From: the human T2T-CHM13v2.0 reference genome, Homo sapiens | Strand: one strand, 5' to 3' | Length of the DNA: 64,000 bases | Assembly (NCBI RefSeq): GCF_009914755.1 | Contig: NC_060933.1 | In this document: in pieces, positions 46,379-50,344 of the stretch | Layout: each line of letters begins with the position of its first letter | Position numbering within the stretch: the first letter of the stretch is position 1 | Position numbers and translations under genes: made by a program | Notes under the pieces: model-generated | Told to the model about the DNA's origin: nothing | The model's input: only the letters and a program-made list of their open reading frames with translations | Database searches by the model: none

Positions 46379-46606
46379 ACCTAGTTTAGAAAGTGATCCT
46401 TAATGTAGTAACTTCTATAACATTTTATGCACAAAAATACATTTTAAAACTCTGCAACCATGAGGACCATATTATTCAATGAGCAGTTGGAATTCTTTCC
46501 CAAGAATCACATTGAGCCATGAGTATATTTACTTAAAAATTTCTGATATATCTTTTTTAGTTGGACTATCTTCTCTCTTCCCTTTTTCTCCACTATCACC
46601 TGCATT

Positions 46607-46935
46607 ATTATTATTATTATTATTATTATTATTATTATTATTATTATTATTTTGAGATGGAGTTTCGCTCTTGTTACCCAGGCTGGAGTGCAATGGCGCG
46701 ATCTCAGCTCACTGCAACCTACACCACCCGGGTTCAAGTGATTCTCCTGCCTCGGCCTCGTGAGTAGCTGGGATTACAGGCATGCGCCACCAAGCCCAGC
46801 TAATTTTGTATTTTTAGTAGAGATGGGGTTTCTCCATGTTGGTCAGGCTGGTCTCCAATTCCCAACCTCAGGTGATCCTCCAGCCTTGGCCTCCCAAAGT
46901 GCTGGGATTACAGGCGTGAGCCACCATGCCTGGCC
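46607..46935 (-). mobile_element. AluSp/Sq with (TAT)n tail
   Basis: TSD TCACCTGCATT (46596/46936). Confidence 0.9.
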
Positions 46936-47333
46936 TCACCTGCATTTTTACAGGCTTCAACAGAGGTGTTGAGCTGCATATGTCACTTTTTAAAAGCTAA
47001 ATTTACTTCTTTCTTTGGCCAATAGATCTCCATGAGTATTGCATCAACTGGAAGTTTTAGTTTGACTTCTCAAAATACCTTTTTATTCTGGCAACCATTT
47101 TCATTTATTTTTTATAAAGTAGCCTACAAATTCTTTATTACCTGTAGCAGAAAGATTAGACAATGTTCAGGACATTAATATAATCATGTCAATTTCCTAG
47201 CCTTCTCAGCAAAAATACCATTTTCTCATACACATTTCCCATAACTGGTGTAATTACTGGAGGTCATTGCTCAGTAAAGTCCAGGTTCCCTCTGGTCTGG
47301 GGGCATAATTACACTTCACCCACCAAGGAGTAA

Positions 47334-47627
47334 TTTTTTTTTTCTTTGAGACGGAGTCTCGCTCTGTCGCCCAGGCTGGAGTGCAGTAGTGCGGTGTTGG
47401 CTCACTGCAAGCTCCGCCTCCCGGGTTCACGCCATTCTCCTGCCTCAGCCTCCCGAGTAACTGGGACTACAGGTGCCTGCCACCACGCCCGGCTAATTTT
47501 TTGTATTTTTAGTAGAGACAGGGTTTCACCGTGTTGGCCAGGATGGTCTTGATTTCCTGACCTTGTGATCCACCTGCCTCAGCCTCCCAAGGTGCTGGGA
47601 TTACAGGTGTGAGTCACCGCGCCCAGC
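47334..47627 (-). mobile_element. AluY/Sc
   Basis: TSD CCAAGGA(G/A)TAA. Confidence 0.9.
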
Positions 47628-48057
47628 CCAAGGAATAAGTATTAGAGTAACTCAGGTTCCAGGTATCACTGTGGAGCACTGCCCATCTGTCCACAATTGG
47701 TAGAGTTTGAGCCGGTTAAGGATCAACTTTGGGTCATCCAAGGTAATACCAATTGTATCACAGAGTCAAAACTCCTTTCAACTTTTTGACACTGTTGCTC
47801 TGAGGGAGTAGCAGTAAATGGCATGCTTACCAGTCATCTTGCCATATGCCATAGGTTAGGTTGGCCATAGTGTTCCCATAAACATACCTCCTCTTGCTTG
47901 AGCCTGCAGCACAACTGCTATTTAAATATATCAGGTGCTGTTGCTGTTGACATGGCAATTATTCCTTCCCTGGTGAGCATATGGATTCTTGTCCGGAGTT
48001 ATTGACAAGCAAGATGCTGAGCGAGTTGGGTAACATGCATAGTCCATTCAAATACTG

Positions 48058-48736
48058 TGATATGGTTTGGATATTTGTCCTGCTCAAATCTCATGCTGAA
48101 ATGAAATCCCATGGGGATTGGAGGTGGGGCCTGATGGGAGGTGTTTGGGTCATGGGGGTGTGTTCTCCTGAATTTGGTTGTTTAAAAATTGTATGGTGGC
48201 TGGACACAGTGGCTCACGCCTGTAATCTCAGCACTTTGGGAGGCCGAAGCTGGCGGATCACCTGAGGTCAGGAGTTCAAGACCAGCCTGACCAACATGGT
48301 GAAACCCCATCTCTACTAAAAATACAAAATTAGCTGGGTGTGGTGGCGCATGCCTGTAATCCCAGCTACTCAGGAGGCTGAGCCAGGAGAATTGCTTGAA
48401 CCCGGGAGGCAGAGGTTGCAGTGAGCCGAGATCACGCCATTGCACTCCAGACTGGGCAACAAGAGCAAAGCTTCGTCTCAAAAAAAAAAAAAAAAAAAAA
48501 AATGGGTGTGGCACCTGCCCGTATCCCCGCCTTGCTCCTGCCCTTTTCATGTGACCTGCCTGCTCCAGCTTTGCCTTCCACTATGAGTAAAACTCCCCGA
48601 GGCCTCCCTGGAAGCTGAGCAGATGCTGGTGTCATGCTTGTGCAGTGTGCAGAACCATGAGCCAATTAAACCTCTTTTCTTTATAAATTACCCAGTCTCA
48701 GGTATTCCTTTACAGCCATGCAAGAATGGCCTAGCA
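48058..48736 (+). mobile_element. MST (MaLR) LTR containing an AluS (48198-48502)
   Basis: TGATATGGTTTGGATATTTGTCC...AATTAAACCTCTTTTCTTTATAAATTACCCAGTC; degenerate TSD TACTG/CATTG. Confidence 0.85.
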
Positions 48737-49686
48737 CATTGCTTCATCATATTTCTGGGCCAAATGCAAGTTCAGTGAGTTTCCTGGGAGAGAACTCCCC
48801 CTAGTGACCATTTAGACCACAAGCATGAGTCTCCAGAAAAGTCATTTCCACTTGCCATGCTTAACCAAGTTCCCAACCTCCTAAGTCCCTCTTAGTACTC
48901 TGGACCAATGCTGGGTCTGTGATCACAAGTGTTGCAGCCATGAGTACTTGTGATACAAGACTAATTCAAGTACACTACATGCATCTAAAAAGTACTGTGT
49001 CCCTCAAGAGATTGTAGGGTTATCATACTCAGTTCCCAGGGGCTGTTCAGTTCAAGTATCCCAAAGGCTTCCCATAATCATCGTATTGGAAATTCCAGGG
49101 TGAGATCATCATTGGTATGTGACAACCAGGTCATGTCAATATTCACCTCTCAGACATCATTGTGATTTTTTGAATGCCTGCCTGTATTGTTTTCCAAACA
49201 CATTACCATATGCTGTAGTTAAAAGGGCAAACTAGACTCCAATATGCTAGGCAGACAACTGCAATGATGTCTCCCTCATACCCAGGTATTTGCTTTAACA
49301 ATGGAGTGTCATCTTGGGTTACAACAACATGATGCAGAGCTGTTAGCTGACAGTCACAGTATGTTCAGTGAGGTTCAAAGGCAGGAATCCTCTTAGTGCT
49401 ACAGTGAATCAGCATGATACACATAAGAACAAAATGTGACTAAAACAGTAATCCCAACCTACTGTTGCTTAGGCAGGTCATCAAAGAACTCTGAGGTCTT
49501 CTCTCCAAATCTCGTACATAAGGTCTCAGGTAATTGTTGCCATGTGGCTTCGGTCCAATCCTCCTTATCAAGGGGAAATAAATCTTGGGGTATTTCCTTG
49601 TATGGGCTATGATCAGCACCACATATGAGAGAAACAGCTAAGAATATTGTTCTCCTGCTCCTGAGATAAAAATGACAACTCCCAGT

Positions 49687-49980
49687 GGCCGGGTGCAGTG
49701 GCTCACGCCTGTAATCCCAGCACTTTGGGAGGCCGAGGTGGGTGGATCATTTGAGGCCAGGAGTTTGAGACCAGCCTGGCAATATAGTGAAACCCTGTCT
49801 CTACTAAAAATACAAAAAATTAGTCAGGTGCGGTGGCATCTGTCTGTAGTCCCAGCTACTCAGGAAGCTGAGATATGAGAATTGCTTGAACCTTCTAGGC
49901 TGAGGTTGCAGCGAGCTGAGATCATGCCACTGCACTCCAGCCTGGGTGACAGAGTGAGACTCGATCTAAAAAAAAAAAAG
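49687..49980 (+). mobile_element. AluS
   Basis: Full dimer with polyA. Confidence 0.9.
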
Positions 49981-50344
49981 TCACCTTCCTTTCCAGGTAT
50001 TATTTCCCATTTTATGATCTCTTTCCATTTATTACCTGTCTTGATCCAGACTGGGCTTCTCTGGGTAGACATCTCTGGTTCAGCTATCCTGCCCTCTACA
50101 GGCATGTAGCAGATTAAGCTTTCCAGAACTGCTTCTTGTGTCCATTACCAGGTAGAAGGCATAGGGCTAGAAAGGCAAACGAAGATGGGAATGTCTCACA
50201 GGGGAGGGACGCATCACCTATGGTCAGCCGTCATGAGATGAAGTCACTATCCATCTCATTATTTGTTTAGGAATATGCACAGTCAAGTTATTTATTTGTT
50301 TATCTTTAACTTTAGGTTTCTTTTTAAATAAAACAAATTTGCCT

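What the first reader, a model, noticed from the sequence alone, without database searches (positions are those of the whole stretch)
46380..50214. Candidate endogenous chuvirus-like glycoprotein gene hidden between Alus
Seen: five stretches that match no repeat I recognise (49981-50214, 48742-49686, 47628-48057, 46936-47333, 46380-46606; ~2.2 kb, ~750 codons) join once the insertions are removed. On the minus strand they read ATG(50214) [25 protein letters not shown] (signal-peptide-like), KA/ICY, ICGADHS (49606-49626), QQLPETLCTRF (49507-49539), MTW...LWEAFG (~49070), STF, LVITDPAL, LAQKYDEAVFEWTMHVTQL (in frame across the MST insertion), STATAPDIF (~47930), WYYLG*PKVDP*PAQTLP..RW...LSYSNTYS (~47750-47630) and RGNLDFTEQ*PPVI (47255-47293). 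Knowledge, recalled and not searched: chuvirus and BEL/Pao-associated class III glycoproteins have, in this order, GYDC, YCGMHSH, QELGEHACKRL, YW...LYEG, TTFAL, TEHPKL, VNSKFVYVExHIKTQ(I/L)TxL, SIAPDE, WYRL..P..P.T..P...W...LATSGIY and RDHIMFPVEKPAVL. Inference: this is a fossil non-retroviral RNA-virus G gene, or an envelope captured by a retrotransposon. The well-known human non-retroviral RNA-virus EVEs are bornaviral, so a chuvirus-like one would be notable. I cannot confirm it is undescribed.
Basis: partly seen in the sequence, partly recalled or inferred. Interest (0 to 1): 0.93.

Follow-up and report, generated by a model that had tools for sequence, protein, structure and literature searches.

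The report
Decayed retroviral envelope gene, unusual type
This stretch of a human olfactory-receptor cluster is a broken, stand-alone copy of the envelope gene of a family of endogenous retroviruses, not a chuvirus gene, and that envelope family lacks the hallmarks of the two usual retroviral envelope types, so it likely represents a little-studied third type.

Summary
The five non-repeat stretches and the listed motifs are real, but the chuvirus reading fails. Three profiles of chuvirus and insect-retroelement G proteins (PF24664) gave no robust signal (best: 17 of 791 shuffles and 23 of 168 real-DNA controls scored as high; broader profiles z<=1). A different frame found human paralogues. 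One is a complete LTR-pol-env-LTR provirus on chr2, catalogued as MER4/HEPSI (epsilon-like class I ERV). Its env aligns collinearly with 49678-46408 (200 of 610 residues identical; score 125.6 against 20.7+-2.5; 0 of 466 shuffles). Each of the four downstream pieces matches on its own (0 of 100 shuffles each). No LTR, gag or pol was detected beside the element, so it is a solo env fossil with 16 stops and 18 frame changes, later cut by Alus and an MST. The env family (115 matches, about 60 places) hits no viral Pfam family and no PDB entry. It has no CX6CC or immunosuppressive motif and has a ~410-residue fusion subunit. A 2016 HERV catalogue left this region unassigned. The fold class is unresolved.

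The parts
46408..49680 (-). Decayed ERV env gene (whole aligned span, interrupted by three Alus and one MST)
   Evidence: 200 of 610 identical to the chr2 proviral env, 0 of 466 shuffles; 16 stops; 18 frame changes away from junctions
48742..49686 (-). env piece 2: signal-peptide-like segment (about 49654-49624), surface subunit, basic cleavage-site-like motif (about 48901-48885), glycine-containing fusion-peptide-like segment (about 48885-48843)
   Evidence: score 60.0 vs 18.1+-2.5, 0 of 100, reference residues 4-316; this piece was the query that found the family, so it is not an independent test; segment names are inferred from the alignment
47628..48057 (-). env piece 3: fusion-subunit ectodomain
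   Evidence: 33.3 vs 17.1+-2.6, 0 of 100, residues 391-462
46936..47333 (-). env piece 4: fusion-subunit ectodomain
   Evidence: 37.6 vs 15.7+-2.0, 0 of 100, residues 477-593
46380..46606 (-). env piece 5: membrane-proximal region, membrane-anchor-like segment (about 46486-46432), short tail to about 46408
   Evidence: 21.2 vs 13.9+-1.9, 0 of 100 (shuffle maximum 20.9, so the weakest piece), residues 612-680
49981..50330 (-). Upstream non-repeat stretch; only its last ~45 nt are tied to the insert (possible start codon near 50010, inferred); the rest is unassigned
   Evidence: no match to env or integrase; database protein P0123 aligns from 50023 across the Alu site to 49474
49687..49980 (+). 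Alu inserted in the 5' end of env
   Evidence: sequence, match to an Alu in the chr2 locus; absent from P0123
48058..48741 (+). MST-type MaLR solo LTR (name recalled) carrying an Alu at 48170-48510
   Evidence: sequence; similar repeat copies in the chr13 locus
47334..47627 (-). Alu with 11-nt target-site duplication
46607..46935 (-). Alu with (TAA)n tail and 15-nt target-site duplication
   Evidence: family D8
50330..51620 (-). L1 3' fragment upstream of env (name recalled)
   Evidence: sequence; ORF2-like frames; matches a repeat in the chr6 locus
45930..46375 (-). L1 3' fragment directly downstream of env (name recalled)
   Evidence: sequence

Best explanation
The stretch is a broken, stand-alone env gene homologous to the env of human MER4/HEPSI endogenous retroviruses, and it likely entered the germ line of an early placental mammal and has likely decayed without function since. 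Shown: collinear homology to that env, the stops and frame changes, the later Alu and MST insertions, and no detectable LTR, gag or pol beside it. Inferred: the original protein was a class I fusion glycoprotein (signal peptide, ~270-residue surface subunit, basic cleavage site, fusion peptide, long coiled-coil helix, cysteine-rich ectodomain, membrane anchor, short tail) that would have driven virus entry. Most likely the rest of the provirus was deleted or displaced (L1 fragments flank env on both sides); a retrocopied env mRNA is the next most likely route. It makes no protein today.
For:: frame 48742-49688 finds paralogues (best E 0.009); three of these lie behind an integrase (rve, MLVIN_C); the chr2 copy has two LTRs 84-85% alike, plus RT and integrase. 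Viterbi 125.6 vs 20.7+-2.5 (0 of 466); Forward 87.7 vs 6.6+-1.5 (0 of 466; 0 of 90 real-DNA controls; other strand 2.9; reversed profile 12.2); pieces 3, 4 and 5, not used to find the family, each 0 of 100; 115 matches in the genome to one 384-aa env frame; the chr2 provirus is row rvnr 550 of Vargiu 2016 Table S1 (same PBS as; MER4, supergroup HEPSI, class I); the chr2 env has hydrophobic peaks at both ends, 22 cysteines and 12 N-glycan sequons; copies show basic sites before a glycine-rich segment; predicted long helix after that site; 9 of the 10 atlas rows shown are viral fusion or envelope families (score <=0.80, lead only). Age: P0122 (98 of 167 identical) and P0123 (38 of 81) are far closer to this locus than to 13 human paralogues and imply roughly 20-30% nucleotide difference.
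Against: The element itself was not among the 115 matches (frameshifts, 34% identity). Identity is reference-biased: 30-34% to the young clade, only 19-22% to the eight older copies L075-L082. The family has no hit to an envelope or fusion family in Pfam and none in PDB, and the fold searches found only generic helices, so 'env' rests on position, anatomy and weak atlas scores. No orthologous DNA could be examined; P0122 and P0123 come from unnamed records and could be old paralogues. The stop-count age test is crude (16 observed; 12+-3.5 expected at 25% decay of a host frame). Loss of the provirus and retrocopy were not distinguished.
Confidence: 0.9

Rival explanations
1. A once co-opted solo env: a host kept the gene for a time (syncytin-like or receptor-blocking role) after the provirus was lost, and it decayed later in the human lineage.
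For: Whole env retained, from signal segment to tail, with no flanking LTR, gag or pol detected; single copy by DNA; similar sequences exist in other records.
Against: Both database fragments are also broken: P0122 needs 8 frame changes and P0123 4 to align; no longer relative was found; damage is about what long neutral decay gives. The two nearest human relatives also show little or no pol nearby, so solo env remnants may be common.
Confidence: 0.12
2. Fossil chuvirus or BEL/Pao class III G gene.
For: Spacing of three cysteines, two tryptophans and a YS motif in 47961-47634 resembles family columns by eye; one setting of five gave z=4.0 on 60 shuffles; 1 of 32 viral frames gave z=4.1 on 20 shuffles.
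Against: No PF24664 hit (one search found only a weak chr2 place); local score 16.7 vs 17.8+-1.8, 642 of 877 shuffles higher; the z=4 setting fell to 17 of 791 shuffles and 23 of 168 real controls, true order 30 of 120; broader profiles z<=1.0; the same bases match ERV env far better.
Confidence: 0.01
3. Decayed hAT transposase.
For: Dimer_Tnp_hAT at E=0.015 over 28 residues.
Against: Below the curated cut-off; no match to 11 human hAT-derived frames or their profile (z<=0.3); the same residues align to env.
Confidence: 0.01

Closest known systems
HEPSI3 / MER4E-LTR proviruses (Vargiu et al. 2016, PMC4724089, Table S1 rows rvnr 550 and 4269)
   Same: Their pol-to-3'LTR region is the homologue of this element (33% amino-acid identity over 610 positions). 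Row 550 is the chr2 copy.
   Different: The element is solo, far more decayed and on a long branch with the chr13 and chr6 copies. The catalogue gives no Env coordinates, no ISD and no RepBase match for this region in rows 550 and 4269, though its motif list names TM or SU/TM; the Env subgroup it lists for HEPSI3 is an ISD-bearing one.
Gamma-type Env (syncytins, HEMO, EnvP(b)1 and most class I HERV env)
   Same: Position after pol, signal peptide, basic cleavage site, two hydrophobic ends.
   Different: No CX6CC and no ISD at the expected place; no TLV_coat hit; the fusion subunit is about 410 residues.
Epsilonretrovirus Env (walleye dermal sarcoma virus type)
   Same: Carried by epsilon-like pol; described as lacking the conserved TM cysteine pair and predicted to have a distinct structure (PMC3758190).
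   Different: Homology not tested directly: no such sequence was in hand.
Lokiretrovirus Env and paramyxo/pneumovirus F; foamy virus Env
   Same: Central basic site, fusion peptide, long coiled coil, long ectodomain (PMC7947760); F0 clusters among the atlas rows at 0.77.
   Different: No PF00523 hit; lokiretroviruses were not reported in mammals in the passages read; the carrier pol is class I.
Chuvirus / Monjiviricetes G (PF24664) and its insect retroelement captures
   Same: Similar length, about 670-690 residues, glycoprotein with a C-terminal anchor.
   Different: No significant similarity to the element or to its env family.

Membership tests
Chuvirus/Monjiviricetes G (PF24664) | Significant match to the family profile | tested here: not met
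Chuvirus/Monjiviricetes G (PF24664) | Class III (gB-like) fold | tested here: inconclusive
   model of the homologous env frame has pLDDT 54.7 and long helices; fold searches uninformative
Bornavirus G EVE (EBLG, PF06208) | Match to BDV_G | tested here: not met
   one search finds 6 matches on chr1 and chr9:35.5 Mb, none at this locus
hAT transposase | Collinear match to hAT catalytic and dimerisation regions | tested here: not met
env of MER4/HEPSI class I ERVs | Full-length collinear homology to the frame between pol and the 3' LTR | tested here: met
env of MER4/HEPSI class I ERVs | Flanking LTR, gag and pol at this locus | tested here: not met
   no match of the chr2 LTR, gag or pol frames next to the element; an older, unrelated LTR would be missed
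Class I fusion glycoprotein | Signal peptide, basic cleavage site, fusion peptide, heptad helix, membrane anchor | tested here: met
   on the family, by sequence and prediction; degenerate in the element
Gamma-type retroviral Env | CX6CC motif with ISD upstream in TM | tested here: not met
   (no CX6CC; the one L-x-N-R match is LGNR in a different context); definition from PMC3758190
Beta-type retroviral Env | Match to beta/lentiviral TM families; class II pol | tested here: not met
   no such Pfam hit; carrier is class I
Epsilon-type or F-like (loki) Env | Sequence or structural homology to WDSV Env, loki Env or paramyxovirus F | tested here: inconclusive
   no Pfam, PDB or fold hit; atlas lead only; no WDSV or loki sequence compared
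Catalogued repeat (Dfam/RepBase) | Annotation of the locus or of the env region | not testable with these tools
   no Dfam here; the 2015 RepBase image in Vargiu Table S1 shows no match for the env region

The most novel reading that the evidence does not exclude
The human genome holds about 60 fossils of an unrecognised third envelope type (neither gamma nor beta; epsilon-type or F-like), carried by epsilon-like HEPSI3/MER4E retroviruses that infected mammals from early placental times into primate evolution. This locus is one of its oldest traces and possibly a lost co-opted gene.
Probability: 0.3. Interest if true: 0.8.

Novelty: new variant of a known kind. Interest (0 to 1): 0.5.

Why it matters
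The chuvirus claim, which would have been a first for the human genome as far as the surveys read here go, does not hold. A decayed ERV env is ordinary in itself. What deserves attention is the env family. HERV envelope catalogues lean on the ISD and CX6CC motifs, and this family has neither and hits no envelope family in Pfam, so it escapes such screens. If it is related to epsilonretrovirus Env or to F proteins, it would show that mammalian retroviruses used a fusogen type known mainly from fish and reptiles. It would also give specialists a query to look for intact, co-opted copies in other mammals.

Tried and rejected
Pfam scans of all frames: no relevant hit. PDB sequence search of the three minus frames: only Alu-derived and low-complexity hits; plus frames not searched there. 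Chuvirus G, in four scoring schemes and three profiles (121, 66 and 32 sequences): rejected; the post-hoc best setting did not survive real-DNA controls. Chuvirus L, N and gypsy pol frames: no signal. Bornavirus G, hAT and the weak chr11 hit L015: rejected or unexplained. A Tigger origin of the last 700 bases and an olfactory-receptor pseudogene were considered and dropped once pieces 4 and 5 matched env. Atlas with P0123: uninformative, <=0.79. Single-sequence fold pLDDT 33.6; alignment fold pLDDT 54.7 gave no Foldseek match at E<=0.001 and best Z 6.3 on one helix, which neither supports nor excludes a fold. The first env alignment misplaced C-terminal fragments and was replaced. GTDB scan: 0 of 29 stretches.

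Full report
Observation. The window lies in the first intron of long OR1J2 transcripts on human chr9 (hub annotation; place confirmed). Between 46380 and 50330 five non-repeat stretches are separated by three Alus and an MST-type LTR that holds a fourth Alu (repeat names recalled). Two Alus have clear target-site duplications. Pieces 2, 3 and 4 are single-copy by DNA search. No frame on either strand hits a relevant Pfam family.

Test of the chuvirus reading. With their relatives and ten more chuvirus-like G proteins I built three profiles. hmmsearch and tblastn found nothing at the locus. Frameshift-aware local alignment scored 16.7 against 17.8+-1.8, with 642 of 877 shuffles as high; glocal alignment z=0.5. 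A codon-decay Forward score reached z=4.0 at one of five settings on 60 shuffles. On retest, 17 of 791 shuffles and 23 of 168 real-DNA controls were as high, and the true piece order ranked 30 of 120. The broader profiles gave z<=1.0. One of 32 single viral frames gave z=4.1 on 20 shuffles, which I treat as multiple testing. The bornavirus G model finds 6 matches elsewhere in the genome but not this locus. A 28-residue hAT hit (E=0.015) was not supported.

What it is. Searching the genome with another frame of piece 2 gave nine other places. Three of the five examined lie downstream of a retroviral integrase. The chr2 copy is a whole provirus with RT, integrase and two LTRs 84-85% alike. Its three natural env frames, laid in order with X at the joins, align to the element from 49678 to 46408: 200 of 610 identical, Viterbi 125.6 against 20.7+-2.5 (0 of 466 shuffles), Forward 87.7 against 6.6+-1.5, 0 of 90 real-DNA controls, other strand 2.9. 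Tested singly, pieces 2-5 each beat 100 of 100 shuffles and map to consecutive parts of env. Piece 1 does not (59 of 100 as high). Against the chuvirus profile the five pieces gave 48, 13, 43, 53 and 1 of 60. Only piece 2 was used to find the family, so pieces 3-5 are independent. The path holds 16 stops and 18 frame changes away from junctions. No LTR, gag or pol of the chr2 type matches beside the element, which is flanked by L1 fragments.

The family. One 384-aa env frame has 115 matches in the genome (107 of 173 candidates scored, so a lower bound; about 60 places by my hand count, some of them segmental duplicates). The element itself is not among them. I examined 13 relatives: the element is 30-34% identical to three of the four young copies (25% to the chr22 one), 25-30% to the chr6 and chr13 remnants with which it groups, and 19-22% to the eight older copies; these values are biased towards the chr2 reference. 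The chr2 provirus is row rvnr 550 of Vargiu et al. 2016 Table S1: same primer-binding site as, class I, MER4, supergroup HEPSI, MER4E LTRs, no Env coordinates, no ISD, and no RepBase match over the env region. Row 4269, the representative of HEPSI3, has the same blank. It probably corresponds to the chr15 match (assembly offsets recalled). Six short env motifs occur in none of that paper's six supplements, where long table cells are cut.

How it worked (inferred). The chr2 env is about 683 residues with hydrophobic peaks at both ends, 22 cysteines and 12 sequons, no CX6CC and no ISD. Copies show a basic site followed by a glycine-rich segment at about residue 270, and an alignment-based model puts a long helix behind it (pLDDT 54.7 overall). 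Nine of the ten atlas rows shown are viral envelope or fusion families, all at 0.80 or lower, a lead only. This fits a class I fusogen with a ~410-residue fusion subunit, unlike gamma- and beta-type Env as defined in PMC3758190. No envelope or fusion family in Pfam and no PDB sequence matches it, and the fold searches were uninformative, so epsilon-type or F-like remains a hypothesis.

Age (inferred). Two unnamed database proteins match the element through several frame changes (98 of 167 and 38 of 81 identical), far better than they match 13 human paralogues, and one spans the first Alu site without the Alu. That identity corresponds to about 20-30% nucleotide difference in a simple simulation, as expected for an orthologue in a distant placental mammal; old paralogues are not excluded. 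The chr2 provirus is much younger by its LTRs.

Literature seen. Passages: PMC11089739 (one placental chuvirus EVE, in dolphin; supplements listed but not read), PMC11521997 (chuvirus L and N EVEs in fish, amphibians, reptiles and marsupials), PMC5834213, bioRxiv 2020.12.02.408005, PMC7947760, PMC13524379, bioRxiv 2024.10.28.620668 (no mention of HEPSI), bioRxiv 2021.11.23.469661. Abstract and outline only: PMC7642597. Passages and one section: PMC3758190. Passages and supplement searches: PMC4724089. Brown et al. 2014 on primate epsilon-like ERVs is not held and may describe this env; bioRxiv supplements and Dfam could not be seen and may bear on novelty. Ten searches listed no title or abstract start on this locus or on a non-gamma env in HEPSI/MER4 ERVs; most listed papers were not opened, so this is weak evidence of absence.

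Verdict. Not a chuvirus gene (about 0.01). A solo, long-decayed ERV env (0.9), belonging to an envelope family that motif-based HERV catalogues seem to have left unassigned. The locus is ordinary; the family may not be. Novelty: new variant of a known kind. Interest 0.5.

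Noticed in passing
window 60880-64000 (+): Separate class I ERV internal region (gag, protease, RT), about 59-64% identical to the chr2 provirus; opposite strand and 10 kb away, so not the parent of this env.
   Followed up: partly
window 43380-44376 (-): About 1-kb LTR that looks like a HERV-K LTR5-type solo LTR (recalled), lying between the two upstream non-coding exons of OR1J2 transcripts.
   Followed up: no
window 42500-42900: LTR-like sequence (family not determined) at the annotated start of the long OR1J2 transcripts; could supply their promoter.
   Followed up: no
G000:C6:124903245-124903556 and G000:C13:66861234-66861491 (L071, L072): Two old env remnants that group with this element in the tree (support 0.85) and share 62% DNA identity over 130-190 bases; little or no pol nearby.
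   Followed up: partly
G000:C2:62096898-62098049 (L066): 384-codon stop-free env frame; the Atlas holds this sequence from residue 21 on.
   Followed up: partly
G000:C2:15559678-15559854 (L002): Weak PF24664 match in the human genome (E=1.98 for the genome, 20.9 bits in hmmscan, below cut-off); probably chance.
   Followed up: partly
L013 (IMGVR_UViG_3300007068_000074): Ty3/gypsy-type element with a 671-aa PF24664 envelope and a further 473-codon frame downstream.
   Followed up: no
window 45126-45445: 320 bases of single-copy, unassigned sequence beyond the downstream L1; a decayed LTR is not excluded.
   Followed up: partly
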